Source: Escherichia phage C6. From it: DNA of 64,000 bases. Within the stretch, counting starts at the first letter, position 1; every line of letters starts with the position of its first letter. Below are positions 15,090 through 62,986 of this stretch, piece by piece. Made by a program: the position numbers and the translations under genes. The DNA lies in the sequence record MW679410.1; one strand, written 5' to 3'. Below the pieces are notes generated by a model, which saw only the letters and a list, made by a program, of their open reading frames with translations, ran no database searches and was not told the origin of the DNA.

Positions 15090-17213
15090 CTACATTTTGA
15101 ATTTATTTGGCAGAGCAGAGATATCCAAAGATGCAGCAAGGATTTCCATAGCTTCGTTGCTTTCAGAAACGGATTCATTAACCAAGAATTGACTGAATCC
15201 ATGCATCAGGCGAACTTCACCAGTTTCCATCAAATGGTCGCCATCGTAAACAGATTCGCTGAGCTCTGAAGGAGGTGTTACTGTAGCTTCCATAAGATAT
15301 TTGTGAGATACCCTATCATTCATAGCAAAAGCCGCTACTTTATCAACCTTCAACAATAATCCACGCGGAAGGATAATTTCTGCTTCTTCGGCATATTCTG
15401 TAAGGTCACCAGGAGCGATAACTTTAACTGCTTCAGCACCTCGAATAACCATACCAATTTCAGCAATTCTATCCGCAGGACCTTCAGGTGCAATTGGATT
15501 ACCAAACTCGTCTTCTTCCCATTCTACCTCTTCGTCATCGACTTCACCCACATCAGATGAACTACCACTAGCCAATTTAAACAACTCATCAGCGGAGGAT
15601 AAAGAACCTTCACCACCAACAAAAACGGCTTGGTTGTCGAGGGCCATATAATTTTTACCAAATTCACCAAAGATGTTAGGCTTTAATGAGGCTGACACAA
15701 AGTTCTTAAAGTAAAATGTTTTGTTATCGATATTATGACGCAGAATTTTGTATGGCAAATCCTGACCACGATACAAAATAGTACCCTTAGGAAGTTTAAT
15801 ACCCTTAGTAAATGCTGAGTCTAAATCCTTAATCAATTTAATAGCCGTTGTATTGTTTTCGGATTCAGGTTTACCTAAAAGGAACAAGTTCATAGGAGCA
15901 TATTCAGCTGCGCAATATTCAATAATAGCATTGCTTTCGTCTTTGGTTAGGTCCTTAGGTTTAATGAGCTCACCTGAATAAGCATATGCATCACTAATAG
16001 AATCGTTAATTAGTTTATAAACGGCTTCCATAGCGAAAGCAATTCGAGAGGCCTTTTCTGAAGGGGAGCCTTTAAAACGGGTACTCAGGTTATTAACAAT
16101 TTTCTTAATAATATCCAGACTATTGGTTGTATTGATTTGCGAAAGACCGCTTAAAAGTCTATCGACTTCTGTATTAAAAAATGCCATATTATTAGAGTAA
16201 ATTTCAAACCCTTGTTTATCTCTATTAGCATAATTTAGTTTAAATTTACTATCAGTCATTAAAGCGTGCGTGAGAGCAATGGTGTATCTAAAGTTGGCAA
16301 GGTCCTCGCTCTTAGATTTAAACTGAGAAGCCTGGCGCATTTTGGTAATAGCACCTTTTTTAAAGTTCTGACTAATCTGTTCAATACCTTCATTCTCAGG
16401 GCCTTCAGCCGTGTGAACCGGTACAGAAGCTTCAAACTCGTTATAAACCTGCAATTCTTTAGGGGACAAAGTTTCAGGCTCAGCAGTAGAATACTGCGCG
16501 GCTGCTGCCATACGACGCGAAATCTTAGTACGAGTAATGACAGCCTTATCAGTACGTTTTTCTTCAACTTGTGCAATAGATGCCGCTACGGCTTCGACCT
16601 TACTTACGGCCTGGCCGGTTTTCTTAGAAACATACACTTCGCCAACTTTAGACTCAACTTTAGTATAAAGATCGGCATTAATTTCAGGCATACCCTTGAT
16701 ATCTTCAATATTAGCCCCGCGACGTACTAAAAGAACGTAGGTATGTTTTCCGCTGAATTGGAACATGTCGTCAACAACTTTAAACTTACCACCGGTACGG
16801 GCCATAGCCAAACGAGCTAATACGCGCTGAACGGTAGGGCCTTTACCTTTCATTTTCTTAGTAGGGAAACGGAATAAAACCGCGTCCATTTTAAGTTTGT
16901 TTATTTGTTCATATATGGTATCGAAAATGGTGTTCAGTGTACCGAGTGGATCGGTACCCAAACCACCCTTGAGTTCTGCCGGAGCGCCTTTAGCAGATAA
17001 ACTCATTAAGATAACATGGACGTACTTATCGCCCGCCTTAACCATCTTAATAGCGTCGCCTTCAGACGCATAAGATACCATACGTGCTACTAAATTGTCA
17101 TTACCAGGAGCATGTACCGCAAAAATCTGCGGTACGCCTGAGCCAGGTTTAAGATTTGTTACTGGGTAATTTTTTTTATCACTTTTATCAAAAACTTCGT
17201 TTAAATTTTCCAT
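15090..17213 (-). CDS. Alt-like ADP-ribosyltransferase paralog 1 (divergent middle region)
   Basis: 707 aa; N-terminal ~230 aa near-identical to paralogs 2 and 3 and similar to T4 Alt; C-terminal YRGQ / FVSASL / EAEIILPRG motifs; poly-acidic insert. Confidence 0.85.
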   Translation of the reverse strand: MENLNEVFDKSDKKNYPVTNLKPGSGVPQIFAVHAPGNDNLVARMVSYASEGDAIKMVKAGDKYVHVILMSLSAKGAPAELKGGLGTDPLGTLNTIFDTIYEQINKLKMDAVLFRFPTKKMKGKGPTVQRVLARLAMARTGGKFKVVDDMFQFSGKHTYVLLVRRGANIEDIKGMPEINADLYTKVESKVGEVYVSKKTGQAVSKVEAVAASIAQVEEKRTDKAVITRTKISRRMAAAAQYSTAEPETLSPKELQVYNEFEASVPVHTAEGPENEGIEQISQNFKKGAITKMRQASQFKSKSEDLANFRYTIALTHALMTDSKFKLNYANRDKQGFEIYSNNMAFFNTEVDRLLSGLSQINTTNSLDIIKKIVNNLSTRFKGSPSEKASRIAFAMEAVYKLINDSISDAYAYSGELIKPKDLTKDESNAIIEYCAAEYAPMNLFLLGKPESENNTTAIKLIKDLDSAFTKGIKLPKGTILYRGQDLPYKILRHNIDNKTFYFKNFVSASLKPNIFGEFGKNYMALDNQAVFVGGEGSLSSADELFKLASGSSSDVGEVDDEEVEWEEDEFGNPIAPEGPADRIAEIGMVIRGAEAVKVIAPGDLTEYAEEAEIILPRGLLLKVDKVAAFAMNDRVSHKYLMEATVTPPSELSESVYDGDHLMETGEVRLMHGFSQFLVNESVSESNEAMEILAASLDISALPNKFKM

Positions 17214-17216
17214 TAT

Positions 17217-19262
17217 TTACCCTTGGGTGAATTTTTCTGGGATTTCGTCAAAATTAATACATGAAGCCAAAAGAGGCATTATATCCACCTTGGTCGATTT
17301 GACAAATGAATCAAAAGACACAGGGTTGTCGGTCTCTGTTTCTACGCCTTGGTAAACAACCAATTCGCCGGTTTCCATCAATGCATCACCATCATAGATA
17401 ACCGCATTTTCTGCTAGTTGGTCTGTGGTCTGGATATCAGCTTCCAATAATTTGGTGTTGTAGTTTCCTTTATATGAGGCATCTGTAATTTTAGTAATCT
17501 TAACAGTAGTTCCACGTGGAAGAATAACCTCTTGTTCTGTTGGAGAACCTGACAATTCACCGGGCACAATTACGTTAATAGAGTCTGCACCGGAAATTTT
17601 CCAACCGATGTTCATCATTGTATTTTCGGAACTCGTCAGCATACTTGGAAGAACAATTTCATTATCGCCTTGGAAAGATGTCCCAACGCGATAGTCCTGA
17701 TGAACTGCGGCCATTGCGACGTTTGATACCCAGCCGCCAAAGATAATCGGCTTAAGGGACGTTGATACATAGTTCCTGAAATAAAACAATTTTGAGTGTT
17801 TGATTTTATCAAAAGTGTTAACATTTAAATATTGACCACGCCAAAGTGTAATATCAGGTGGCAATTTATGGCCAATTTCAAATGCCGCATCCATATCATT
17901 AATTACTTCAATTACGCGATAACTATCAATAAATTCTGCATCCTCTTCATAATAATTACCCAACAAATAATTATTAACATCGGTATAATATTGGCCGCAA
18001 TAAGAAGAAATAGCCTCACGCTGCTCATACTCAAATCGATTATCGCTATAACTGGCTGTAAAATGCATAACACTTTCTGACGCTTCATTAGCAAAATCGG
18101 TAACAGCAGCACTTATACGTTGAGCATACTCTTGTTCCCAAAGCTCTGCCGCATATTCGGCCGCATCCATATTAGGAGGAGCCTCATTCATTTTTCTTTC
18201 GATAAATGCAGCTTTGCGAAGGTTAAGAACCTCTGCACATGATTCGGCAAAAATCTGCATCTGCTTCATACTGCCGACAGGAGCACGTTTAAGTTCACGA
18301 TGCATACGGTTAAAAATTGGGTCAGAGTCTTCGACTCGAATTTCTTCTTTCCAAACACCGTTTGCTCGCATAGCCATATCTGCCGCGCGCATACGCTCCA
18401 TAGTATTCGTTTCAGAAGGTTGAATAAAAATTTCTAGTTCTTCATAATCGTCGATAAGTTCCGCTGTTGCTGGGGCACTAAATTTTGATGCCTCTGCATC
18501 AATCTCATTCCAACCTTCCGGAACTTCATCTCGAGGAGAATACTGGGCTGCGGCTACAGCACGCCTAGAAATCTTGGTAGTAGTAATAACGGCCTTATCC
18601 GTACGTTTTTCTTCGACTGCCGCTATACTAGCAGATAGTGCTTCTATTTTGGTTACCGATTGGCCTGTTTTCTTGGATACATAAACCTCACCAACTTTAG
18701 ACTCAACCTTAGTGTAAAGGTCTGCATCAATTTCAGGCATACCTTTTATGTCCTCAATATTAGCTTGTTTACGAACCAGTAAAACGTATGTATGTTTGCC
18801 TGTAAATTGATACATATCATCGACAACTTTAAACTTGCCGCCAGTACGAGCCATCGCCAAACGTGCCAATACACGTTGAACAGTAGGACCCTTACCTTTC
18901 ATTTTCTTGGTAGGGAACCGGAAAAGAACTGCATCCATACGAAGAGCTTTAACTTGTTCGTATACAGTATCGAAAATGGTGTTCAGTGTACCAAGTGGGT
19001 CAGAACCTAACCCGCCTTTCAACTCGGCTGGGGTACCCTTAGCAGACAAACTCATCAAAATAACATGAACATATTTGTCGCCCGGCTTAACCATTTTAAT
19101 AGCGTCTCCTTGAGACGCATAAGATACCATACGAGCAACCAGATTATCATTACCTGGTGCTTGGATAGAGAAAATCTGTGGAATACCGGAACCCGGTTTA
19201 AGATTTGTTACTGGATAGTTTTTAGCGGAATCACTATCAAAAACCTCATTTAAATTTTCCAT
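17217..19262 (-). CDS. Alt-like ADP-ribosyltransferase paralog 2
   Basis: 681 aa; conserved N-terminal module; WRGQ / YVSTSL / EQEVILPRG motifs. Confidence 0.85.
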   Translation of the reverse strand: MENLNEVFDSDSAKNYPVTNLKPGSGIPQIFSIQAPGNDNLVARMVSYASQGDAIKMVKPGDKYVHVILMSLSAKGTPAELKGGLGSDPLGTLNTIFDTVYEQVKALRMDAVLFRFPTKKMKGKGPTVQRVLARLAMARTGGKFKVVDDMYQFTGKHTYVLLVRKQANIEDIKGMPEIDADLYTKVESKVGEVYVSKKTGQSVTKIEALSASIAAVEEKRTDKAVITTTKISRRAVAAAQYSPRDEVPEGWNEIDAEASKFSAPATAELIDDYEELEIFIQPSETNTMERMRAADMAMRANGVWKEEIRVEDSDPIFNRMHRELKRAPVGSMKQMQIFAESCAEVLNLRKAAFIERKMNEAPPNMDAAEYAAELWEQEYAQRISAAVTDFANEASESVMHFTASYSDNRFEYEQREAISSYCGQYYTDVNNYLLGNYYEEDAEFIDSYRVIEVINDMDAAFEIGHKLPPDITLWRGQYLNVNTFDKIKHSKLFYFRNYVSTSLKPIIFGGWVSNVAMAAVHQDYRVGTSFQGDNEIVLPSMLTSSENTMMNIGWKISGADSINVIVPGELSGSPTEQEVILPRGTTVKITKITDASYKGNYNTKLLEADIQTTDQLAENAVIYDGDALMETGELVVYQGVETETDNPVSFDSFVKSTKVDIMPLLASCINFDEIPEKFTQG

Positions 19263-19265
19263 TAT

Positions 19266-21350
19266 TTACCCTTGGATGAATTTTTCTGGGATGTCATAGA
19301 GGTCTATGCATGAAGCCAAAAGAGGCAGTACATCAAACCGTGTAGATTTAACAAATGAATCAAAAGATACAGGGCTTTCGGAAGTATCGAAGTCATCTTG
19401 ATATACGACCAACTCGCCGGTTTCCATTAGTACGTCACCATCATATACCACAGATTCTTGAAGCTCATCTGTTGTCATAACTTCAGCTTGGATGAGTTTT
19501 GTATTACTAGATGTTGTTCCATCATTATTAGAAGCATCTGTTATTTTATTAACTTTGACCATTAATCCACGCGGTAGAATAACTTCGGCTTCAGTTGCTA
19601 TTCCGAGATTTCCTGGATATACTACATTAACTTTATGAGCCCCATCAATAGCCCATCCTATTTGAACTTTAACGTAATCAGGATTTTCCTTATACGCCCT
19701 TATTTCATTAGGGTTAATAGTTATTCCTTCTTCATTTTTATCGACTGTCAATTCATTACGAACTTCCGGTTCTAAAAGACCGATACCAGCGTGTGTAACA
19801 CCAAATCGTCCAAAAATGATAGGGGTTAAAGAAGTAGATACAAAATTTCTGAAATAGAACACTTTATTTTTAACTAGTGCTTCGTATATAGGAGCAGTCA
19901 TACTCTGTGCACGATAAACTGTAATGCCTTCTGGTATACGGTCACCATTTTCAAAAGCAGAATCCAAATTATTAACTGCAGATTCGATATCTTTTTCGCT
20001 CATAACCTCATAGTTCTGAGGATTATAACGTCCTAAAAGAAGATTATTTATGTCTGTATATCCTGAACCACAATATTCTCTGATGCCGCGCTTTTGTGAT
20101 GGGGTATATTTAGAGCCCTCACGAGCAATAGTAATATCGACCATAATACCACCACCCACACCAGCAAAACTATATACACGTTTTTTAATGAACTTGGTCT
20201 TGGCGGCTTTCCACTTCGCATCGGTCAATTCATTCCAGAGGTCGTCAGGTTGGCCTTTACGAGTTTTGTTATGCCGGGCCAGCCATTCACCTTTGTATTC
20301 TTCGAAAACGGTATTAATAGCAGAGGCATATTTTTCTAGAGCTTTAACAGATGTCAAAGGTTCGTTTTTGATGGCCGTAAGAATTTTATCTTTAATTTTC
20401 TCTTGGATTTCACCTATACCGTGAAGAGGAAACATTTTATAATCGTAATGCAATTCTTCAGCAGTGCCTTCAGCCACTATATTAGCAACCTTATTTTTAG
20501 CCGCAGGAGAATTGTTATTAGTAACCATTTCCTGAGCCTCAGGGATTAATGGAACTGTTGCTGGTTTATTAAAATCCGCTGCAGTAGCTTCATATTTCTT
20601 AAACAATTCACTTTCATTACGATAAGATTCCAATGATTGGCTTGCTGCAATAGCACGTCGCGAAATCTTAGTCTTGGTTATAACCATTTTATCAGTGCGA
20701 CGTTCTTCAACCTTAGCAATACTGCCGGCAATAGCAGTTTCTTTAGTAACCTGCACACCTTCTTTTTTGGAAATATAAACTTCACCGACATCAGAATCTA
20801 CCTTAGTGTATAATTCGGAATTAATTCCTGGCATACCTTTGATATCTTCGATATCAGCTTGTTTACGAACTACTAAGATGTAAGTATGTTTACCGGTAAA
20901 TTGGTACATAGCCGGAACTACTTTAAAACGTCCACCAGTTTTCTGTGCTACCAAACGTTGGATAATCCGTTGGACAATAGGTCCTTGTCCTTTCATTTTC
21001 TTGGTAGGAAAACGGAACATCACGGCATCCATACGAAGCTTTTTAACTTGGTCATAAACCACATCAAAAATAGTATTAATCGCATCTACGGGAGTAGGGC
21101 CAAGGCCACCCTTAAGTTCGGCCGGAGTACCTTTAGCTGAAAGGCTCATAAGGATAACGTGGGCATATTTATCACCCATTTTAACTTGTTTAATAGCATC
21201 ACCTTCAGAAGCGTAGGATACCATACGCGCGACCAATTGGGATTCAACGTCTCCAATTTTCCAAATCTGGGGTACTTTAAGTTTAGGGTTCAAGTTTACT
21301 GTAGGCAGAGTGCCTTCGGACTCAAACACTTCATTTAATTGTTCGGTCAT
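19266..21350 (-). CDS. alt: Alt ADP-ribosyltransferase (closest to T4 Alt)
   Basis: 694 aa; collinear similarity to T4 Alt over full length, including KYTPSQKRGIREYCGSGYTDINN, FVSTSL and EAEVILPRGLMVKVNKITDAS. Confidence 0.9.
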   Translation of the reverse strand: MTEQLNEVFESEGTLPTVNLNPKLKVPQIWKIGDVESQLVARMVSYASEGDAIKQVKMGDKYAHVILMSLSAKGTPAELKGGLGPTPVDAINTIFDVVYDQVKKLRMDAVMFRFPTKKMKGQGPIVQRIIQRLVAQKTGGRFKVVPAMYQFTGKHTYILVVRKQADIEDIKGMPGINSELYTKVDSDVGEVYISKKEGVQVTKETAIAGSIAKVEERRTDKMVITKTKISRRAIAASQSLESYRNESELFKKYEATAADFNKPATVPLIPEAQEMVTNNNSPAAKNKVANIVAEGTAEELHYDYKMFPLHGIGEIQEKIKDKILTAIKNEPLTSVKALEKYASAINTVFEEYKGEWLARHNKTRKGQPDDLWNELTDAKWKAAKTKFIKKRVYSFAGVGGGIMVDITIAREGSKYTPSQKRGIREYCGSGYTDINNLLLGRYNPQNYEVMSEKDIESAVNNLDSAFENGDRIPEGITVYRAQSMTAPIYEALVKNKVFYFRNFVSTSLTPIIFGRFGVTHAGIGLLEPEVRNELTVDKNEEGITINPNEIRAYKENPDYVKVQIGWAIDGAHKVNVVYPGNLGIATEAEVILPRGLMVKVNKITDASNNDGTTSSNTKLIQAEVMTTDELQESVVYDGDVLMETGELVVYQDDFDTSESPVSFDSFVKSTRFDVLPLLASCIDLYDIPEKFIQG

Positions 21351-24463: not shown

Positions 24464-24668
24464 CTTTGACACTTATAATTTCAACATCAGCCCAATGACC
24501 ATAACCAGGTAGACGGTCTTTAATAGATAATCCACCGTCAAATTTCAGCATTTTAATTGTTTTAGTATATGGTTCAATATTTCGGGCCCATGGACTCACG
24601 TCTGTCACACGATAAGTAACTTCGACCATTTCTGTGCCCAAAATTTTCTGAATCAGTTTCTTAAACAT
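24456..24668 (-). CDS. hypothetical protein
   Basis: 70-aa track ORF in tightly packed operon. Confidence 0.45.
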   Translation of the reverse strand: MFKKLIQKILGTEMVEVTYRVTDVSPWARNIEPYTKTIKMLKFDGGLSIKDRLPGYGHWADVEIISVKDV

Positions 24669-24669
24669 A

Positions 24670-24864
24670 TTATCCTCGCTTTAAACATTTAATTACAGAC
24701 AGTTCACCACCCATGCGAACATCTTCAGTTCCATCGACCCATAGGACGGTGTAGGCTTCTTTAATAGTAACATTACCTAATTTAAAAGCAGGTAGAACCT
24801 TTGAAATCATTCCAGGAATACCTATACCCTTTAATTGGACCGTTTGCGATAAGAATAGTTGCAT
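24670..24864 (-). CDS. hypothetical protein
   Basis: 64-aa track ORF. Confidence 0.4.
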   Translation of the reverse strand: MQLFLSQTVQLKGIGIPGMISKVLPAFKLGNVTIKEAYTVLWVDGTEDVRMGGELSVIKCLKRG

Positions 24865-25151
24865 TAGAACCTCATCTGAAAGCCGTGTGATTTAACATTA
24901 CCACCATAGATGTCAGACGTATTGACTTCACGTGCAACACTCGGGTCGATATTGATATCACGGTTGAGCTTAGTGATTGCTAGGGTATCACGACCATTAA
25001 CAGTACGGAATTCTACCGGGCATACAACATCAGCGTAAGCCTTAATAGATTCACGAGTAGGTTGTTTGTCGGCAGGAACATCTTTACTTGCTTTAGAGAA
25101 AACAACTTCACAGAAATTTTTACGAGTGTCGAAATAAGTGGTCATAAACAT
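24864..25151 (-). CDS. hypothetical protein
   Basis: Track ORF 24864..25184; likely start at MFMTTYF... after GAGGAAA SD just past a UUCG hairpin. Confidence 0.45.
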   Translation of the reverse strand: MFMTTYFDTRKNFCEVVFSKASKDVPADKQPTRESIKAYADVVCPVEFRTVNGRDTLAITKLNRDINIDPSVAREVNTSDIYGGNVKSHGFQMRF

Positions 25152-25166
25152 AATATTTTCCTCAAA

Positions 25167-25182
25167 GGAGGCCGAAGCCTCC
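25167..25182 (-). terminator. intercistronic UUCG hairpin ggaggcCGAAgcctcc
   Basis: Perfect 6-bp stem; identical copy at 62962..62977; sits just 5' of the next gene's SD. Confidence 0.5.
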
Positions 25183-25192
25183 ATTTTTAAGA

Positions 25193-25558
25193 TTAGATAT
25201 CGAATTCGTTCAGAACTACATCAAAGATTGCTTCCAGGTGTTCAGGTTTAGCTCTGTTGCTCAGGATGTGTCGAATCCAAGTTTTAACCAGAAGCTTACG
25301 ATTAACACCGTTCCAGCAAGGATGGGTACCTAAATCACGTTGACGGAAATCATCATCTAAAGCGATTTTAAAAGTAGAACCTTCCATTGTGATTGAAACC
25401 GTAATACCATTTTCAAAGCGCATATAAACGTAGTTAGGAGTCATGCACTGCTCGATTTCGCACACCGTGCCGTTGTTGTGTTTCCACAGGCAAATAACTT
25501 CAGAAGAACCAGCGATACCGTTAGAAACATATTTACGTTCGAAGTTGATGTAGTTCAT
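25193..25558 (-). CDS. hypothetical protein
   Basis: 121-aa track ORF; 5'UTR belongs to a duplicated promoter/leader cassette. Confidence 0.5.
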   Translation of the reverse strand: MNYINFERKYVSNGIAGSSEVICLWKHNNGTVCEIEQCMTPNYVYMRFENGITVSITMEGSTFKIALDDDFRQRDLGTHPCWNGVNRKLLVKTWIRHILSNRAKPEHLEAIFDVVLNEFDI

Positions 25559-25593
25559 TTTATTCTCCAGTTTGTTTTCGTATTATTTGGTAC

Positions 25594-25630
25594 AGGTCTA
25601 TAATAACACAACCTGTACCAAAGTAAACTG
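25594..25630 (-). promoter_or_regulatory. early-type promoter (GTTTAC-N18-TATTAT)
   Basis: Motif family member upstream of ORF 25193..25558. Confidence 0.5.
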
Positions 25631-25632
25631 TT

Positions 25633-26001
25633 TTATGCAACTTTAATCCAATTATCTAAATTTAATTCACCTTTGGCTTTCATTTTTTCAATCAAATCGT
25701 CAGCAGTAGTGCGACCATTTTGATACCATGTAACATCTTCAGAATAACCAGTTTCTTCATCTTCATAGGTCTTACAACGAATCTTACCGATTATGATGGT
25801 TTTCAGTTCGTAGGTATCACCGGTAAAAAAGTTTGTTACCATAATTTTCCAAGAGAAGTCATCAGAAGGACCTTCCGGAGTCATGCAACCTACAAATTCA
25901 AATTGTTCTTTGTACAAGCGCCATTGCATTTCTTTAGTTTCGATTGCTTTGTAACCGTCGTGGTCTTTACATTTGATATATGAGTTAAGATTGATTTTCA
26001 T
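25633..26001 (-). CDS. hypothetical protein
   Basis: 122-aa track ORF; same 5'UTR cassette as the ORF at 25193..25558. Confidence 0.5.
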   Translation of the reverse strand: MKINLNSYIKCKDHDGYKAIETKEMQWRLYKEQFEFVGCMTPEGPSDDFSWKIMVTNFFTGDTYELKTIIIGKIRCKTYEDEETGYSEDVTWYQNGRTTADDLIEKMKAKGELNLDNWIKVA

Positions 26002-26039
26002 TTTATTCTCCAGTTTGTTTTCGTATTATTTGGTACATG

Positions 26040-26072
26040 TCTATAGTATCATGCCTACTAGAGATGTACATA
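26040..26072 (-). promoter_or_regulatory. early-type promoter variant (ATGTAC -35, TACTAT -10)
   Basis: Second copy of the duplicated cassette, with a degenerate -35. Confidence 0.4.
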
Positions 26073-26097
26073 CTTTTTTGCAAATAAAACGAAAAAA

Positions 26098-26113
26098 GGA
26101 ACCCGAAGGTTCC
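26098..26113 (-). terminator. hairpin ggaaccCGAAggttcc with flanking T-run
   Basis: Perfect stem, UUCG loop on minus transcript, followed by TTTTTT; same element recurs at 58214..58229. Confidence 0.55.
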
Positions 26114-26470
26114 TTACTTAATGATGATACGAGGATTAAGCTCTGCCGTGTAGTAATTTACAGCCTTAGTAACTATAGCTTCACCTTTAGGATTTGCCAG
26201 AACCCATTCACGGGCTCGTTTGTGAGCTTCTAATTCAGTCAATAATCCGGACCTTTGACACCCTCTGTCTTGGGTACCTGCTTCTGTTAAAAAAGCAACT
26301 AGGTAGATCGCGTTTTCATAAGGCGTGGCGGGCGGTACGTATACAGGCGGGCTTGGCGGGTTATATGCCGCGGGATGATGTGCCGGAATTCCATCATACG
26401 GCCCTGTACCTGGCACCGCGTAAGAGGCGCCGCGAGGAGAAGTAAATGTATGATTATATCTATCGTTCAT
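26114..26470 (-). CDS. hypothetical proline-rich protein
   Basis: 118 aa; N-terminal proline-rich tract (GIPAHHPAAYNPPSPPVYVPPATPY) then a globular C-terminal part. Confidence 0.5.
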   Translation of the reverse strand: MNDRYNHTFTSPRGASYAVPGTGPYDGIPAHHPAAYNPPSPPVYVPPATPYENAIYLVAFLTEAGTQDRGCQRSGLLTELEAHKRAREWVLANPKGEAIVTKAVNYYTAELNPRIIIK

Positions 26471-26488
26471 AATATTTCCTACAAAAAT

Positions 26489-26506
26489 GGGACTCCGAAG
26501 AGTCCC
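26489..26506 (-). terminator. hairpin gggactCCGAAGagtccc
   Basis: Perfect stem followed by T-run on minus strand. Confidence 0.5.
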
Positions 26507-26511
26507 ATAAC

Positions 26512-26673
26512 TTATGCCTGAGGCTTACCAAAGCAAGCAGCATCTGCACGCAATACCGCACGAGCACGAGCTTGAAGCTTATCAACTACCTGATCGATAC
26601 GCTTGTTGGACGCACGCTTGTAACCAGCGCGTTTAGAGGTACCGTCAACTACTTTAACTTCTTTCTTAGCCAT
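26512..26673 (-). CDS. hypothetical 53-aa basic protein
   Basis: Hand-called MAKKEVKVVDGTSKRAGYKRASNKRIDQVVDKLQARARAVLRADAACFGKPQA; not in track (<60 aa). Confidence 0.45.
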   Translation of the reverse strand: MAKKEVKVVDGTSKRAGYKRASNKRIDQVVDKLQARARAVLRADAACFGKPQA

Positions 26674-26828
26674 TTTAAATCTCTTAAATTAGAATGCAGG
26701 ACTTATTGGCGTTGCCTGCGCAAGCCCTCAAGGGGAACATAGGTTTCGGATATTTAACGACAGGATAACCATAAACCTCGTCATCATACCAACCACGGCT
26801 TAGACAGATAACCTTTTTCTGACGCGTG

Positions 26829-26857
26829 ATAGTACAAAATACATTCAAGAGGTACAC
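26829..26857 (-). promoter_or_regulatory. early-type promoter (GTGTAC-N17-TACTAT) inside a 260-nt ORF-free region
   Basis: Correct spacing; would give about a 145-nt leader ahead of ORF 26512..26673. Confidence 0.4.
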
Positions 26858-26940
26858 CGTAAAATTGTCGGGGCGGTACTTCTAAAACATACCGATTCGT
26901 AAATCGATAATCAGACAATTCGACGGCTCCTCGATTTAAC

Positions 26941-27189
26941 TTACTTCAGGGTAATAATAAAATGACGTACTGCTTTACGAGCTGCTGAAGCCAAAGGCTT
27001 AGCAAATTTCAGTTCATCTTTAGCTTCCAGTTCAGCAGCCAGAGTAGCCTGAGCCGGATTCAGATGTTTGAAATAACGCAGGATTTCCAGTGCTTCGGCT
27101 TCAACATCAATAGATGCGCCGTAGTTTTCGTGACCGTTGTTCCAAGCGTTGCGTTGCAGTTCAAGAGCGTGATTCAGTTGTTTGTTCAT
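26941..27189 (-). CDS. rIII: rIII lysis-inhibition accessory protein
   Basis: 82 aa; MNKQLNHALELQRNAWNN...AKPLASAARKAVRHFIITLK matches T4 rIII. Confidence 0.9.
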   Translation of the reverse strand: MNKQLNHALELQRNAWNNGHENYGASIDVEAEALEILRYFKHLNPAQATLAAELEAKDELKFAKPLASAARKAVRHFIITLK

Positions 27190-27327
27190 TTTAGTTTCTC
27201 AATTCGAGATAAAGATTGGCGAGCACGTTCGTCTCAGTATTTCCAGCTGAGTTGTATCTCGCCGTATGGAAGAGGCTAACCCCATACACCAACCGAAGTT
27301 CTGTATGACATCAACCTCTTCGTAATT

Positions 27328-27651
27328 TTATTTATACAAGCAAGGAATTGCTTTGTAATGACAGGTAACGAATTTTTGTTTAATTTCTTTGGGCTGTTTA
27401 ATACCCAATGCAACCAACGGATGAGGCACGTTAGCAATCTTACCAACAGGAAGTGGAGTCAAATCGCCTACTTCACAAAAATCTTCAGGGACATCAGGTC
27501 CTACAGAATAAATTTCACAAAGTTCAGGGATTTCACCTTGATGGAGTTTGCCAATAACGATACCAGATGCAGTAGTTTCTTCATCACCAGCTTGTTTTGG
27601 TTCGGAAACGAGAATAACATATTCTCCGACCGCTTTAATAGGAAGTTCCAT
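27328..27651 (-). CDS. 31: gp31 co-chaperonin (GroES homolog)
   Basis: 107 aa; ...[11 protein letters not shown]...[23 protein letters not shown] matches T4 gp31. Confidence 0.95.
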
Positions 27652-32351: not shown

Positions 32352-32518
32352 AATAATTTCCTCAAATTTTATAATCCGTAGGAGCATTATACTCTGCTCC
32401 CAAGAGTTTGTAAACTACTTTCCAAAAAGACCATGCATACACATGCTGAACACAATCCCAAAACAAAAGAATGCAGCGCCAAATCTAACGGCATCCCAAC
32501 CGCAAACACATGTCTCAA

Positions 32519-40694: not shown

Positions 40695-40934
40695 TCACGC
40701 TTTCTTAGCGATTTTCCAGTCAGCTTTAAATTGGTCCACATCAGAGTGGTGAACCCAGAAACCGGATGAGCTACCATCTTCATAAAGAGGGCACCCATCA
40801 CAATCGTCTTTCCAACCCATTTCACACAAAGCTTGTTCAGCTTTTTCCAGAGCTTCTGGATTTTTACCTTGGATTGTGAAGTACCATTTACCTTTAACTT
40901 CAGAATCGTTGATTGATTCACGTTGTAATTTCAT
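40695..40934 (-). CDS. hypothetical protein
   Basis: Track ORF begins at non-ATG; ATG (MKLQRES...) after AAGGAG; early promoter upstream. Confidence 0.5.
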   Translation of the reverse strand: MKLQRESINDSEVKGKWYFTIQGKNPEALEKAEQALCEMGWKDDCDGCPLYEDGSSSGFWVHHSDVDQFKADWKIAKKA

Positions 40935-40954
40935 TTTATTCTCCTTAGTTGACA

Positions 40955-40990
40955 AGGCTATAGTATCACTACCATAGCCTGGTGTAAACT
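40955..40990 (-). promoter_or_regulatory. early-type promoter (GTTTAC-N18-TACTAT)
   Basis: Motif family member upstream of ORF 40695..40934. Confidence 0.5.
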
Positions 40991-41240: not shown

Positions 41241-41279
41241 GATAGGTCTATAGTATCATGTTTAAAGCAGATGTAAACA
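41241..41279 (-). promoter_or_regulatory. early-type promoter (GTTTAC-N17-TACTAT-AGACCTATCAAC)
   Basis: Canonical member of the motif family. Confidence 0.55.
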
Positions 41280-51057: not shown

Positions 51058-54000
51058 ATGGCTACTTTAAAATCGATACAATTTAAAAGAAGTAAAACAC
51101 CAGGAGCCAAGCCTACTGCAGCTCAGTTAGATGAAGGCGAACTGGCTATTAACTTGCGTGACCGCACTATTTTTACTAAGTCGGACCAGGGACAGATTAT
51201 TGATTTAGGCTTTGCTAAAGGTGGACAAGTTGATGGCGATGTAACTATTAATGGAACTTTACGCATTAACGGCCCATTAAATAATTTTGGAAACTTTTCT
51301 ACAAGCGGGTCAATTACGGCAGGCACGAGTATTTCGGCTCAAACTTTTAGAGCATTACAAGGCTCGTTTTATTCAAGAGCTTCAAACGATACAACATCGA
51401 ATGCCCATTTATGGTTTGAAAATGCTGATGGCTCTGAACGTGGTGTTATATATGCACGTCCTCAAACTACAAATGCTGGTGAATTACGCATTAGGATTAA
51501 ACAGGGGACAGAAGGCACTGCTAATAGTGAATTCTATTTCCGCTCTATAAATGGTGGTGAATTTCAGGCAAACCGTATTTTAGCATCAGATTCATTAGTA
51601 ACTAAACGAATTGCAGCCGATACAGTTATCCACGGTGGCAAAGCCTTTGGTGTATATGATACAGATTCATTAGTTAATTATGTATACCCAGGCACAGGCG
51701 AAGAAAATGGTGTAAACTATCTTCGTAAAGTTCGAGCTAAGTCTGGCGGCACTATATGGCATGAAATCTGTACGGCCCAAACAGGTCAGGCTGATGAGGT
51801 TTCTTGGTGGACTGGTAGTACTCCAGTATCTAAACAATGCGGTATTCGTAATGACGGGCGAATGATTGTTCGTAATAGTCTTGCGCTTGGCACAATGACT
51901 ACTGATTTTCCGTCAAGTGATTATGGTAATGGAGGTGCTCTAGGATTTGGCGCTTATTTAGCTTTAGGTGATAACGGCACAGGTTTACGTTATCAAAAAA
52001 CCGGTGTTTATGATTTAGTCGGTTCTGGTTTATCTGTGGCCTCTGTTACTCCGGATAGTTTCCGTAGTACTCGTAAAGGTTTATTTGGACGTTCAGAAGA
52101 CCAAGGTGCAACTTGGATTATGCCAGGTACGAATGCTGCCTTTTTATCAGTTCAAACCCAGGCTGATGTGAATAATGCAGGTGACGGTCAGACGCATATT
52201 GGCTATAACTCAGGCGGAAAAATGTCTCACTATTTCCGCGGTAAAGGTCAAACCAATATTAACACCCAAGAAGGCATGGAACTTAACCCAGGTATTCTTA
52301 AACTGGTAACCGGCGGTAATAATGTACAGCTTTATGCTGACGGCACTATTTCTTCTATTCAAAGAATTAAATTTGATAACGGGGTACTTCTTACCGGGGC
52401 TAGAGCTGACGGTATTCAACTTGATGCGCCTACATCATTAGATGGCACTAAAACTATACTGTGGGGCGCTGGTACTCGCGCAGGTCAGAATAAAAACTAT
52501 ATATCTATTAAAGCATGGGGTAATTCATTTAATACAGGTGGCGGTAATAGAGAAACTGTTTGGGAAGTTTCAGATTCACAGGGCTATTATTTTTACGCGC
52601 AAAGAACCAACCCGGCATCAGGTGAAACCGTCGGCCCTGTTAACTTTAAATTTAACGGAACTGTCGAAACAGGCCATATCATAGGCCTTGGTAATATAAG
52701 TGCCTCCGGTACAGGTTCTTTTGGTGGCAATGTTACTATGTCTAACGGTTTGTTTGTCCAAGGTGGTTCTTCTATTACTGGACAAGTAAAAATTGGTGGA
52801 ACAGCAGATGCATTAAGAATTTGGAATGCCGAATACGGTGCTATTTTCCGTCGTTCAGAAAGTAACTTTTATATTCTTCCAACCAATCAAAATGAAGGCG
52901 AAAGTGGAGACATTCACAGCTCTTTGAGACCTGTGAGAATAGGATTAAACGATGGCATGGTTGGGCTAGGAAGAGATTCTTTTATAGTAGATCAAAATAA
53001 TGCTTTAACTACAATAAACAGCAATTCTCGCATTAATGCCAATTTCAGAATGCAATTAGGACAAAATGCTTATATAGATATTGAGGCTTCTGACGGTGTT
53101 CGTCCTGCAGGGTGTGGTTCATTTGCATCCCAGAATGACGCAAACGTAAGAGCTCCGATTTATATGAATATAGAGCGTACTGCTCCTTCTGAATATATTC
53201 CTATTGTCAAACAACGTTACGTACAAGGTGATAGTACTTATTCTATTGGTACCTTAATTTCTCAAGGAGACTTCCGCGTTCATTATCACCAGGGCAATAG
53301 TACTACCGGAACTGATTTGAGTTGGGAATTCCGCCGCACCGGTGACTTCCGCTTACCTGGTAAAATTATTGTAGGCAACACAACTTTAGGAACTGATGGT
53401 AATATCACTGGTGGCTCTGGTAACTTTGCTAACTTAAACAGTACAATTGAATCACTTAAAACTGATATTGTTTCAAGTTATCCTATTGGAGCCCCAATTC
53501 CATGGCCAACGGATACTCCTCCTAATGGTTATGCTTTGATGGAAGGTCAGACCTTTGATAAAGGTGCTTATCCTAAGCTTGCTGTTGCATATCCTTCTGG
53601 TACTATTCCTGATATGCGTGGTCAAACTATCAAGGGTAAACCAAGTGGACGTGCTGTGTTAAGTGCAGAAGCTGATGGTATTAAGTCCCATAACCATGGT
53701 GCATCCGCATCTAATACAGATTTAGGTACTAAAACTACGTCAAGTTTTGATTATGGTACTAAAACCACTTCAAGTTTTGATTATGGTACTAAGACCAGTA
53801 ATACCACTGGTAACCATAACCATACAGTAAGCGGTACTACTAGCGCAGCAGGTAACCACCAGCACTCACAGACCGGTCCAAGGGGTCCTAATAATCAACC
53901 AACAGGAGTATATCCTAATGGAGCTACTGCAATTAGTGGAACCAATGTTCTTTCTTTTGCCACAAGCGACAAAATCGTGCCTGGTATAGGCCAATATATT

Positions 54001-57826: not shown

Positions 57827-57865
57827 GATAGGTCTATAATAACACGTTTAAAGCAGAAGTAAACT
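57827..57865 (-). promoter_or_regulatory. early-type promoter for motA
   Basis: GTTTAC-N17-TATTAT-AGACCTATCAA upstream of motA. Confidence 0.55.
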
Positions 57866-58150: not shown

Positions 58151-58189
58151 GATAGGTCTATAGTATCATGTTTAAAGCAGAAGTAAACA
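58151..58189 (-). promoter_or_regulatory. early-type promoter
   Basis: Same 40-nt core as the promoter at 41241..41279. Confidence 0.55.
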
Positions 58190-58207
58190 CTTTTTTTCAC
58201 TAAACCC

Positions 58208-58240
58208 AAAAAAGGAACCCGAAGGTTCCTTACTTTTTAA
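58208..58240. terminator. bidirectional hairpin A6-ggaaccCGAAggttcc-T-run
   Basis: Same hairpin as at 26098..26113. Confidence 0.55.
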
Positions 58241-59855: not shown

Positions 59856-60009
59856 TTTTAATCATCTTAAGTAAACCGACAGAAGTAGAAAGAATCCAGC
59901 CAATAAACAGAAAACTTAAGAATACCGGACCAGGGGTCCACACGCCTAAAAAGAAGCAAACTGAACAGACAATAGCCATAATAAGTTCAATAAAAACTAG
60001 AATAACCAT
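59848..60009 (-). CDS. 53-aa predicted membrane peptide
   Basis: Hand-called MVILVFIELIMAIVCSVCFFLGVWTPGPVFLSFLFIGWILSTSVGLLKMIKND; GAGGAAA SD. Confidence 0.4.
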   Translation of the reverse strand: MVILVFIELIMAIVCSVCFFLGVWTPGPVFLSFLFIGWILSTSVGLLKMIKND

Positions 60010-60019
60010 ATTTTCCTCA

Positions 60020-60097
60020 TTAGCGTCCGAAGACGCCTTTGGTTTTAAGATTGTTACGATAGAACTGCATCACATGTTCATTATGGAAATTACTCAT
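60020..60097 (-). CDS. stp: Stp peptide
   Basis: Hand-called 25-aa [25 protein letters not shown], matching the remembered T4 Stp peptide sequence. Confidence 0.75.
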
Positions 60098-60712: not shown

Positions 60713-60789
60713 ATCAATTTCCTCAGTAGATTAATGTTTTGTTATCCAGTCAACGAGAACCATTATAACATGATTCTCGAGGTTGTAAA

Positions 60790-61134
60790 CTATTTTTGTA
60801 GCTGTTCCAAAATAAATCCGCTCGTATAAAAGGAAGCATTATAAACCTTGTTCAGTGGGTCCAAAGCGCGTCCGTAAGTATCACGTAGTTCTTTGATAAC
60901 GTTTTCATAACTCACGTAGTAAGCACTATGATAACCAGGGTCCATGCTCATACGGAATTTGATGAATCGATAAAAACCTGTATCCGGGTCTTGAACGAAA
61001 ACGAAATCAGCACTCGTCATAATTTTTGAATCTACGCCAGGAATCATACTTTGATTGAATGCCACCGATGCATCCTGAAGGCTGAGTTGTTTAAAGAACA
61101 TTACCTTAGCATTACCAAAAAAGATTTTAGACAT
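60790..61134 (-). CDS. hypothetical protein (ndd.x position)
   Basis: Track ORF 60790..61158; probable start MSKIFFGN... Confidence 0.45.
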   Translation of the reverse strand: MSKIFFGNAKVMFFKQLSLQDASVAFNQSMIPGVDSKIMTSADFVFVQDPDTGFYRFIKFRMSMDPGYHSAYYVSYENVIKELRDTYGRALDPLNKVYNASFYTSGFILEQLQK

Positions 61135-62759: not shown

Positions 62760-62949
62760 CGAAATAAGAAATACGAACCTCTAAACAATGAGCGTATGCA
62801 CCCATCGCGTCTAGTTGGGCAATCAGTAACCCTTGTTGACGGATATCAAGAGTTTCAAAAACACCGCCTTTAATAAACTCTTCGAGAGCATTAATTTTAA
62901 GAACTAACTGGTCGTATTCTTCAATTACACGTGCTTGGTAACCTAACAT
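62752..62949 (-). CDS. hypothetical protein
   Basis: 65-aa track ORF; GAGGAAA SD directly after a UUCG hairpin. Confidence 0.45.
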   Translation of the reverse strand: MLGYQARVIEEYDQLVLKINALEEFIKGGVFETLDIRQQGLLIAQLDAMGAYAHCLEVRISYFGE

Positions 62950-62961
62950 AATTTCCTCTTA

Positions 62962-62977
62962 GGAGGCCGAAGCCTCC
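62962..62977 (-). terminator. intercistronic UUCG hairpin ggaggcCGAAgcctcc (second identical copy)
   Basis: Identical to 25167..25182; lies between the rIIB stop and the next SD. Confidence 0.5.
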
Positions 62978-62986
62978 ATTTAGTTT

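What the first reader, a model, noticed from the sequence alone, without database searches (positions are those of the whole stretch)
25556..26046. Duplicated 47-nt promoter/5'UTR cassette in front of two unrelated ORFs
The sequence cattttattctccagtttgttttcgtattatttggtaca(g/t)gtctata occurs at about 25556-25602 and 25999-26045 with one mismatch. Each copy contains the start codon, the SD (GGAGAATAAA) and the -10 region for a different hypothetical gene (25193..25558 and 25633..26001). This is a portable expression cassette and points to modular gene shuffling by recombination between promoter-proximal sequences.
Basis: seen in the sequence. Interest (0 to 1): 0.5.

Follow-up and report, generated by a model that had tools for sequence, protein, structure and literature searches.

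The report
Twin promoter-leader cassettes flanking phage gene 30.8
Two near-identical 49-base promoter and leader cassettes bracket a small gene in a T4-like phage, and related phages show that recombination between them has deleted or swapped that gene; this is a clear example of a mechanism already described for T4-type phages.

Summary
The repeat is real. Positions 25554-25602 and 25997-26045 match at 48 of 49 bases, and no match is expected by chance. The window comes from a T4-like coliphage of the Dhakavirus group, and the genes here lie on the minus strand. Each copy carries the last 3 nt of the -10, the start region, a leader of about 40 nt, the Shine-Dalgarno sequence and the ATG of a T4-type early transcription unit. 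One copy serves gene 30.7 (25193-25558) and the other gene 30.8 (25633-26001). The shared block GGAGAAUAAAA equals the published optimal RegB/S1 cleavage site, and the T4 30.7 transcript is a known RegB target. The 30.7 copy also carries a 12-bp stem-loop that encloses its -10. This fits the published definition of a PeSL (promoter-early stem-loop). Among Dhakaviruses with 96-99% identical flanks, the 30.8 ORF between the copies occurs as two alleles that are only 62% identical, with breakpoints at the cassette edges. At least ten phages lack 30.8 and carry a hybrid cassette, with three different crossover points. The exact duplicate is confined to Dhakaviruses, two copies per genome. This is a new member of a known kind, of modest interest.

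The parts
25554..25602 (-). Repeat copy 1: transcription start region, leader, SD, ATG and first 2 nt of codon 2 of gene 30.7
   Evidence: 48/49 identical to copy 2
25997..26045 (-). Repeat copy 2: the same elements in front of gene 30.8
25600..25628 (-). Early promoter of 30.7: -35 GTTTAC (25623-25628), 17-nt spacer, TGn, -10 TATTAT (25600-25605)
   Evidence: Exact match to the T4/PST PeSL promoter consensus TTTACW-N17-TAYWAT (consensus from PMC4122927). Conserved in T4, Mosigvirus, Dhakavirus and Jiaodavirus. The TuIa GenBank record annotates a -35, a -10 and an RBS upstream of 30.7
25586..25622 (-). Stem-loop enclosing the -10: arms TTTGGTACAGGT (25611-25622) and ACCTGTACCAAA (25586-25597), with a 13-nt loop that holds the -10
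   Evidence: -21 kcal/mol in an 85-nt context, z = -3.87, 0 of 200 shuffles fold as well. Klebsiella phages keep the hairpin with different arm sequences
25558..25568 (-). GGAGAAUAAAA: Shine-Dalgarno sequence and predicted RegB/S1 cleavage site of the 30.7 mRNA
   Evidence: Identical to the T4 optimal 11-nt RegB/S1 site (PMC1702504). The T4 30.7 transcript is a known RegB target (PMC9409239). Unpaired in the predicted fold
25193..25558 (-). Gene 30.7 homologue (121 aa, Pfam PF06919)
25633..26001 (-). Gene 30.8 homologue, allele A (122 aa, Pfam PF06019); the module bracketed by the two copies
   Evidence: Replaced by allele B (109 aa) in JS98-type Dhakaviruses and absent in at least 10 phages
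26043..26071 (-). Early promoter of 30.8: -35 ATGTAC (26066-26071), 17-nt spacer, TGn, -10 TACTAT (26043-26048)
   Evidence: The orthologous -35 is GTTTAC in Mosigvirus and GTGTAC in other Dhakaviruses
26001..26011 (-). GGAGAAUAAAA: Shine-Dalgarno sequence and predicted RegB/S1 site of the 30.8 mRNA
26072..26115 (-). Upstream part of the 30.8 PeSL: intrinsic terminator hairpin AAGGAACC-TTCG-GGTTCCTT (26096-26115), its T-run, and the AT-rich tract before the -35
   Evidence: An 87% twin lies at 58191-58235, directly upstream of another early promoter
26114..26470 (-). ORF118: a variable SD-ORF-terminator module inserted in the AT-rich zone between the 30.9 terminator and the 30.8 promoter
   Evidence: Absent from IME341, IME08 and JS98; present in phage 212, TH54, TH57 and SP18

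Best explanation
The two copies are the downstream halves of two neighbouring PeSL-type regulatory cassettes of a T4-like (Dhakavirus) phage. Each cassette is read on the minus strand. It consists of an AT-rich tract, a sigma-70 T4 early promoter (-35, TGn, -10), an unstructured A-rich leader of about 40 nt, the block GGAGAAUAAAA, and the ATG.

The GGAGAAUAAAA block serves as the Shine-Dalgarno sequence and is also the optimal target of the phage RegB endoribonuclease with ribosomal protein S1. Both genes would therefore be switched on immediately after infection and switched off together by RegB cleavage.

The 30.7 cassette additionally carries a 12-bp stem-loop that encloses its -10. In transcripts reading through from 30.8, this would form a hairpin that attenuates transcription or protects the RNA end.

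The promoter start region and the RegB/SD block are similar for functional reasons in all T4-like phages. The near-perfect identity across the whole leader, however, is specific to Dhakaviruses and is best explained by gene conversion between the two adjacent cassettes.

Because the cassettes are direct repeats 443 bp apart, they also act as substrates for the phage's homologous recombination system. Exchange between them deletes 30.8. Exchange at each cassette between co-infecting phages swaps the ORF in between.

Shown here: the anatomy, the conservation, the allele swap and the deletion junctions. Inferred: promoter activity and RegB cleavage in this particular phage, the role of the hairpin, and gene conversion as the cause of the identity.
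For: Repeat.

Genome identity and gene names.

Promoter: TTTACW-N17-TAYWAT gives 7 matches against 0.46 expected, all on the coding strand. The cassette family is shown.

PeSL definition: the stem-loop is most commonly placed between the -35 and -10 or overlapping the -10, and the cassette ends with the SD and start codon (PMC2839356, PMC4122927).

Hairpin: z = -3.87. Klebsiella phages keep it with different arm sequences.

RegB: the consensus GGAGAAUAAAA, T4 30.7 as a known RegB substrate, and regB annotated in the Dhakavirus type phage JS98.

Lineage-specific identity: the two leaders within one genome are 88-98% identical in Dhakavirus, 84% in Mosigvirus, 82% in the VR20 type and 68-70% in T4.

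Allele swap: window versus L008 gives 30.9 99%, 30.8 ORF 62%, 30.7 cassette 96% and 30.7 ORF 96%. The breakpoints fall after ATGAAAA and at the -35 of the 30.7 promoter. In GenBank, 33 Dhakavirus records carry allele B and 10 carry allele A, all between the same cassettes.

Deletions: at least 10 phages have 30.9, then a hybrid cassette, then 30.7. The crossover lies in the SD-ATG block (TuIa, AV109, PTE-Eco05, G2285), at TGTACCA (AV116, AV118, SQ17) or at the -10 (JM10).

JM10 carries a Dhakavirus-like patch that starts at the -10 of the cassette.
Against: No experiment on this phage exists. Promoter use, start sites, RegB cleavage and any hairpin function are inferred from sequence and from T4 literature.

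The -35 of the window's 30.8 promoter (ATGTAC) deviates from the consensus.

No Dhakavirus genome in the collections has lost 30.8, and neither recombinant junction built from the exact Dhakavirus cassette was found in IMG/VR. The deletions are documented in Mosigvirus-type genomes, whose cassettes are less similar.

The allele swap needs only that each cassette be conserved between phages, not that the two cassettes resemble each other.

The three junction classes could partly derive from one deletion followed by later exchanges within the cassette.

Gene conversion is inferred from the identity pattern and was not tested with a formal method.
Confidence: 0.82

Rival explanations
1. The similarity is purely functional convergence. 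All strong T4 early promoters and ribosome-binding sites look alike, so the repeat reflects shared constraints with no history of recombination.
For: Many cassettes in the window share GTTTAC...GATACTATAGACCTATCAA...GAGGAAA...ATG at 65-80% identity. GGAGAATAAAATGAA also occurs exactly at 40930-40944 and equals the RegB/S1 optimum.
Against: The central ~25 nt of the leader (TGTACCAAATAATACGAAAACAAACT) follows no family consensus. It differs between the 30.7 and 30.8 leaders in T4, Mosigvirus and the VR20 type, yet is identical within Dhakavirus genomes. The hybrid cassettes in the 30.8-less genomes are direct recombination products.
Confidence: 0.07
2. The repeat is a relic of an ancient tandem duplication of one gene together with its promoter, so that 30.7 and 30.8 are diverged paralogues.
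For: The two proteins have nearly equal length (121 and 122 aa) and share a CMTP motif at the same position (BLASTP E = 0.034).
Against: They belong to different Pfam families. Profile-profile comparison gives probability 0.05%. A relic should be most diverged in non-coding DNA, yet the leader is 98% identical while the proteins are unalignable. The identity is also lineage-specific.
Confidence: 0.03
3. The identical leader is maintained by selection because a specific trans-acting factor, beyond RegB/S1, binds it to co-regulate translation or stability of the two mRNAs. Recombination would be a by-product.
For: The 30.7 copy is invariant in nearly all Dhakavirus genomes sampled, VR5 being the exception. 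The leader is unstructured and A-rich, which is typical of S1-binding translational enhancers.
Against: No such factor is known for these genes. Other genera manage with different leaders. The 30.8 copy is polymorphic at two sites within Dhakavirus. There is no Rfam match.
Confidence: 0.1
4. The cassette is an actively targeted recombination site. The stem-loop would be recognised by a phage nuclease or recombinase, so exchange is site-specific rather than homology-driven.
For: Arbiol et al. speculated that PeSL stem-loops may be protein targets. Hairpins enclosing the -10 are over-represented among this window's early promoters: 5 of 19 pattern matches (about 17 judged plausible promoters) against 7.5% of background windows.
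Against: The crossovers in the 30.8-less genomes are spread over three positions across ~50 nt, including the SD-ATG block far from the stem. That is the signature of homology-driven exchange.
Confidence: 0.05

Closest known systems
PeSL (promoter-early stem-loop) cassettes of T4-type phages (Arbiol, Comeau, Kutateladze, Adamia, Krisch 2010, PMC2839356; Comeau, Arbiol, Krisch 2014, PMC4122927)
   Same: Same composite anatomy: an upstream stop codon in an AT-rich tract, a sigma-70-like early promoter, a stem-loop (here overlapping the -10, one of the two commonest placements), then the SD and start codon. The elements are repeated in intergenic regions of hyperplastic regions. They flank ORFs that are inserted, deleted or replaced between close relatives. 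The promoter consensus TTTACW-N17-TAYWAT described for T4/PST is met.
   Different: PeSLs were described for RB49/phi1, T4/PST and KVP40/nt-1. This is a Dhakavirus pair at the 30.7/30.8 locus. The two copies are unusually alike (48/49) through the transcribed leader, whereas recombination in RB49 was proposed mainly in the AT-rich part. Mini-circles and reporter activity were not testable here.
T4 early promoter and RegB-processed leader of gene 30.7 (Truncaite et al. 2006, Virology 344:378, as cited in PMC9409239)
   Same: Orthologous element. T4 has GTTTAC-TTTGGTACAGG...TATTAT...CCTGTACC...GGAGAATAAAAATG upstream of 30.7. Its early transcript is cleaved by RegB at the SD GGAG.
   Different: In T4 the 30.8 leader is different, and the two leaders are only 68% identical over 50 nt, so T4 lacks the long duplicate. 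The 2006 paper itself could not be read here.
RegB/S1 target site GGAGRAYARAA, optimum GGAGAAUAAAA (Durand et al. 2006, PMC1702504)
   Same: Both copies carry the optimum exactly, in a predicted single-stranded context, as the SD of an early gene.
   Different: Cleavage was not demonstrated for this phage or for 30.8 in any phage. regB was seen in JS98, not in this window.
Linker-sequence model of modular phage evolution (Botstein 1980, from memory) and morons (from memory)
   Same: Conserved short intergenic sequences serve as crossover points that exchange self-contained gene modules. ORF118, with its own SD and terminator, resembles a moron.
   Different: Here the linkers are themselves functional expression signals and occur as direct repeats within one genome, so they also permit intragenomic deletion.

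Membership tests
PeSL | Sigma-70-like early promoter (T4/PST consensus TTTACW-N17-TAYWAT) | tested here: met
   Copy 1 matches exactly. Copy 2 has ATGTAC-N17-TACTAT, with one deviation in the -35. Both have a TGn extended -10. Orthologues in other phages have GTTTAC.
PeSL | Stable stem-loop within or next to the promoter (between -35 and -10, overlapping either box, or in the AT-rich region) | tested here: met
   The 30.7 cassette has a 12-bp stem enclosing the -10, z = -3.87. The 30.8 cassette has a terminator hairpin at 26096-26115 in its AT-rich region, plus a weak hairpin spanning the -10 (z = -1.6).
PeSL | AT-rich tract with the upstream stop codon 5' of the -35; SD and start codon at the 3' end | tested here: met
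   Read directly from the sequence.
PeSL | Repeated motif in intergenic regions of hyperplastic regions | tested here: met
   At least 10 related cassettes in the window, all on the coding strand.
PeSL | Association with insertions, deletions or replacements between closely related genomes, with junctions in the element | tested here: met
   Allele swap of 30.8. Deletion of 30.8 with three junction classes. ORF118 indel in the AT-rich zone.
PeSL | Demonstrated promoter and terminator/attenuator activity (reporter fusions) | not testable with these tools
   Only indirect support: the T4 30.7 early transcript is documented.
PeSL | Formation of mini-circles by exchange between flanking elements | not testable with these tools
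   Requires inverse PCR on infected cells. The reciprocal junction was not found in assembled contigs.
RegB/S1 cleavage site | 11-nt sequence GGAGRAYARAA with invariant GGA | tested here: met
   GGAGAAUAAAA at 25558-25568 and 26001-26011, identical to the T4 optimum.
RegB/S1 cleavage site | Single-stranded context in an early, intergenic transcript region | tested here: met
   The GGAG block is unpaired in the MFE and centroid folds of both copies. Early-transcript status is inferred from the promoter type.
RegB/S1 cleavage site | Phage encodes RegB, and cleavage is seen in vivo | tested here: inconclusive
   regB is annotated in the Dhakavirus type phage JS98. It was not looked for in this window and is not expected there from the T4 map position. 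Cleavage is untested.

The most novel reading that the evidence does not exclude
The twin cassettes would be more than passive homology. Together with the stem-loop that encloses the -10, they would form an actively processed recombination module that excises gene 30.8 as a 443-bp mini-circle. The circle would be packaged and re-integrated into the single hybrid cassette of 30.8-less phages of other genera. That would account for the same slot holding allele A, allele B or nothing, and for the Dhakavirus-type patch in the Mosigvirus JM10.
Probability: 0.1. Interest if true: 0.6.

Novelty: new member of a known kind. Interest (0 to 1): 0.3.

Why it matters
The finding gives a clean natural example of how T4-type phages reshuffle accessory genes without damaging neighbouring expression. 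The signals that start transcription and translation, and that time mRNA destruction by RegB, also serve as the crossover points. The locus shows every state in sequenced genomes: gene present in allele A, present in allele B, and absent with three junction types. It would therefore be a convenient system for measuring recombination between PeSLs as a function of homology length. It does not change the current picture, because the mechanism was proposed and partly demonstrated in 2010-2014.

Tried and rejected
- **Chance:** rejected, with 0 matches in 100 shuffles.
- **Assembly artefact:** rejected, because the duplicate is present in 36 or more independent records.
- **Known RNA family:** no Rfam match at E <= 1 in 24500-27500.
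- **Generic sigma-70 scan:** not informative, with 6 sites against 6.2 expected. The T4-specific consensus had to be used instead.
- **Paralogy of 30.7 and 30.8:** BLASTP finds only a CMTP motif, the Pfam families differ, and hhalign on locus-derived alignments gives probability 0.05%. Those alignments are shallow, so very remote homology is not excluded. I ran no further search on this question.
- **Exact recombinant junctions built from the Dhakavirus cassette:** none in IMG/VR, for either the 30.8-deleted junction or the reciprocal one.
- **The cassette in bacterial genomes:** none.
- **Literature:** Miller et al. 2003 (the list of T4 early promoters) is not held. Figure 3A of Durand 2006, which lists the RegB substrates, is not available as text. 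Truncaite 2006 is not held. The T4 omics paper does not mention 30.7 or 30.8 in its main text. A search on gene names returned only noise.
- **Campbell-type re-integration of a mini-circle as the cause of leader identity:** considered and dropped. A single crossover yields reciprocal chimeras, not identical copies, unless the leaders were already alike.

Full report
**1. Observation**

The repeat exists as described. A degenerate 47-mer matches exactly at 25556-25602 and 25999-26045 on the minus strand and nowhere else in the window, even with 3 mismatches allowed. None of 100 dinucleotide-preserving shuffles gave a match. Identity continues 2 nt into both coding sequences, so the copies are 25554-25602 and 25997-26045, at 48/49. 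The one difference is 25595 G versus 26038 T. Weaker similarity (79% over 87 nt) runs on through the -10 and spacer.

**2. Genomic context**

The window is from a T4-like coliphage closest to the Dhakavirus group. IME341, ABTNLsp5 and IME08 are 96% identical over the shared parts, but no record covers the whole 1.8-kb query at more than 82.5%. By the IME08 and T4 annotations, the ORFs are the conserved genes 30.7 (121 aa, Pfam PF06919) and 30.8 (122 aa, PF06019). They lie in the block between DNA ligase (gene 30) and rIII/31/cd. I found no relationship between the two proteins. BLASTP shows only a CMTP motif, and profile-profile comparison gives probability 0.05% on admittedly shallow alignments.

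**3. Anatomy on the coding strand**

- **Copy 1.** Five nucleotides after the 30.8 stop codon comes GTTTAC (25623-25628), then a 17-nt spacer with TGn, TATTAT (25600-25605), a leader of about 40 nt, GGAGAATAAAA (25558-25568) and the ATG.
- **Copy 2.** A terminator hairpin (26096-26115) is followed by its T-run and an A-tract, then ATGTAC (26066-26071), a 17-nt spacer with TGn, TACTAT (26043-26048), the same leader, the same GGAGAATAAAA (26001-26011) and the ATG.

The exact repeat therefore holds the last 3 nt of the -10, the start region, the whole leader, the SD and the start codon. It does not hold the -35 or the spacer.

The T4/PST PeSL promoter consensus TTTACW-N17-TAYWAT (PMC4122927) gives 7 matches in the window against 0.46 expected, all on the coding strand, and copy 1 is one of them. 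A relaxed search shows about 17 such promoters that share GTTTAC...GATACTATAGACCTATCAACTAA...GAGGAAA...ATG at 65-80% identity. The 30.7/30.8 pair is simply the most similar pair in a family.

**4. The SD block**

GGAGAAUAAAA is, letter for letter, the sequence that Durand et al. 2006 derived as the optimal target of the T4 RegB endoribonuclease with ribosomal protein S1 (consensus GGAGRAYARAA; PMC1702504). The T4 30.7 early transcript is an established RegB substrate, cut at the GGAG of its SD (PMC9409239, citing Truncaite et al. 2006). The block is unpaired in the predicted folds. regB is annotated in JS98, the type Dhakavirus.

This explains why GGAGAATAAAATGAA is invariant upstream of 30.7 and 30.8 in nearly every phage examined, and why it recurs at 40930-40944.

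**5. The stem-loop**

In the 30.7 cassette, the promoter spacer (TTTGGTACAGGT, 25611-25622) and the first 12 nt of the repeat's transcribed part (ACCTGTACCAAA, 25586-25597) form a perfect 12-bp inverted repeat with the -10 in the loop. In an 85-nt RNA context the fold energy is -21 kcal/mol, z = -3.87, and 0 of 200 shuffles fold as well.

The stem is conserved in T4, Mosigvirus and the VR20-type phages. Klebsiella Jiaodaviruses keep an even stronger hairpin (-23 to -24 kcal/mol) built from different arms, UUGGGUGGU/ACCACCCAA. Structure is therefore preserved rather than sequence.

Arbiol et al. [quoted passage not shown] The 30.8 copy has only a weak version (z = -1.6) but has a separate terminator upstream.

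Across the window, 5 of the 19 relaxed-pattern matches (about 17 of which I judged plausible early promoters) have a hairpin of -11 kcal/mol or better enclosing the -10, against 7.5% of random windows. Their stem sequences differ. The hairpin lacks a U-run, so its role as an attenuator or RNA end-protector for read-through transcripts is inferred from the PeSL papers and is not shown here.

**6. Why the two leaders are identical**

I extracted the 30.9-30.8-30.7 region from 20 or more relatives. Identity between the two leaders within one genome (last 50 nt) is:

| Group | Identity |
|---|---|
| Dhakaviruses | 88-98% |
| Mosigvirus | 84% |
| VR20-type phages | 82% |
| T4-type phages | 68-70% |

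The central leader string AAATAATACGAAAACAAAC is shared by both Dhakavirus leaders and appears in neither leader of the other groups. The element GACYTGTACC, which is the right arm of the 30.7 stem, occurs in 30.8 cassettes only in Dhakavirus and Mosigvirus.

This pattern indicates exchange of sequence between the two neighbouring cassettes (gene conversion). It argues against both an ancient duplication relic and convergence. The exact cassette occurs only in Dhakavirus genomes, with two copies each, spaced 406 or 443 bp apart, and it is absent from bacterial genomes.

**7. Evidence that the cassettes are recombination points**

(a) *Allele swap.* The 30.8 ORF exists as allele A (122 aa; window, IME341, IME08, Mosigvirus, VR20 type) and allele B (109 aa; T4 and the JS98-type Dhakaviruses). 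The two are about 38% identical in protein and 62% in DNA. Window versus the JS98-type locus L008 gives:

| Segment | DNA identity |
|---|---|
| 30.9 | 99% |
| 30.8 cassette | 91% |
| 30.8 ORF | 62% |
| 30.7 cassette | 96% |
| 30.7 ORF | 96% |

Identity stops right after ATGAAAA of 30.8 and resumes at the TTTAC of the 30.7 promoter. In GenBank, 33 Dhakavirus records have the 563-567-bp spacing (allele B) and 10 have the 600-bp spacing (allele A), between the same cassettes. Four cassette types (Dhakavirus, Mosigvirus, VR20, T4) assort independently of the two ORF alleles.

(b) *Deletion.* I ran BLAST with a synthetic junction that joins the 30.8 promoter and leader to the 30.7 coding sequence. 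It found genomes that match in one contiguous piece. In JM10, AV109, SQ17, PTE-Eco05, AV116, AV118 and G2285, gene 30.9 is followed directly by 30.7. AV114 and AV115 give the same contiguous junction match. The short TuIa record starts just upstream of the hybrid cassette.

All of them keep the 30.9 terminator and the -35 and spacer of the 30.8 promoter, fused to the 30.7 coding sequence. The switch from 30.8-type to 30.7-type sequence lies at three different places:
- within GGAGAATAAAATGAA (TuIa, AV109, PTE-Eco05, G2285);
- at TGTACCA (AV116, AV118, SQ17);
- at the -10 (JM10).

These are the products expected from homologous exchange between the two direct repeats.

(c) *JM10 patch.* JM10 is Mosigvirus-like on both sides. 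It carries a Dhakavirus-like patch of about 150-180 nt that begins at the -10 of the cassette.

(d) *ORF118.* Next door, ORF118 (26114-26470), with its own SD and terminator, is inserted exactly between the T-run of the 30.9 terminator and the A-tract of the 30.8 promoter. It is absent from IME341, IME08 and JS98. Its terminator plus A-tract has an 87% twin at 58191-58235, in front of another early promoter.

**8. Limits**

No Dhakavirus in the collections has lost 30.8, and the exact Dhakavirus recombinant junctions are absent from IMG/VR. The documented deletions are in Mosigvirus-type genomes, whose cassettes are less alike.

The allele swap requires conservation of each cassette between phages, not similarity between the two cassettes. 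The three junction classes may not be three fully independent deletions. What is safe to say is that there are three distinct exchange points within about 50 nt.

Promoter activity, RegB cleavage and hairpin function are inferred for this phage.

**9. Comparison with what is known, and verdict**

The element meets every sequence-testable criterion of a PeSL (Arbiol 2010; Comeau 2014), and its 30.7 half is orthologous to a promoter and RegB site already studied in T4.

The new points are local:
- the near-perfect leader duplication specific to Dhakaviruses;
- the set of natural 30.8 states (allele A, allele B, absent) with mapped junctions;
- the observation that the conserved crossover block is the RegB/S1 optimum.

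I classify it as a new member of a known kind, of modest interest (0.3).

Noticed in passing
window 26114-26470 (-): ORF118 (118 aa, proline-rich N-terminus, PHROG 17531) has full-length homologues in only ~5 phage records (SP18, where it is annotated 'gp30.6A', TH54, TH57, phage 212). Its C-terminal domain (aa 51-107) occurs in ~115 other T4-like phages inside a different ORF. In the metagenomic locus L010, a homologous domain sits downstream of 30.7, which is also the slot of the 204-aa '30.6A' gene of TuIa. The same domain therefore occupies two different slots in this gene block.
   Followed up: partly
window 26075-26119 and 58191-58235 (-): The terminator AAGTAAGGAACCTTCGGGTTCCTTTTTT plus the following A-tract is 87% identical at the two sites. 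Each lies directly upstream of an early promoter, so whole terminator-promoter units are repeated, not only promoters.
   Followed up: partly
window 25153-25186, 60008-60041, 62948-62981 (-): A UUCG-loop hairpin fused to an SD (AAATGGAGGCTTCGGCCTCCTTTGAGGAAAATATTATG) occurs three times at 74-91% identity. The first copy precedes gene 30.6. The genes in the 30.6 slot differ between phages: 288 bp in T4, 477 bp in SQ17 and 615 bp in TuIa.
   Followed up: no
window 32386-32415, 40960-40989, 60762-60790 (-): Three more early promoters carry strong hairpins (-13 to -17 kcal/mol) whose loop contains the -10, each with different stem sequences. At 40960 and 60762 the promoter follows the upstream stop codon immediately, as at 25628. 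This suggests the hairpin is embedded in the promoter when there is no room for a separate terminator.
   Followed up: partly
window 41250-41278, 57836-57864, 58160-58188 (-): Several early promoters contain TGCTTTAAA in the spacer, which resembles a MotA box (TGCTT). They may act as combined early and middle promoters.
   Followed up: no
window 16485-21235: Three tandem units of about 2.05 kb, 65-84% identical, lie just downstream of DNA ligase. By position in the T4 map these are probably tandem alt (ADP-ribosyltransferase) paralogues.
   Followed up: no
L027 (Klebsiella phage TNG87, PV402692.1 47208-47263): The Klebsiella-phage version of the 30.7 leader (TATAGACCTGTACCACCCAAACAGATAA...GGAGAATAAAATG) precedes an unrelated 71-aa ORF at a different locus, near a nucleotidyltransferase gene.
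   Followed up: no
L020 (phage JM10, PP400777.1), locus 2021-2200: A short Dhakavirus-like patch sits inside a genome that is otherwise Mosigvirus. It starts at the -10 of the hybrid cassette and ends within 30.7.
   Followed up: partly
window 53719-53778: A 30-nt tandem duplication (87% identical), GATTTAGGTACTAAAACTACGTCAAGTTTT.
   Followed up: no
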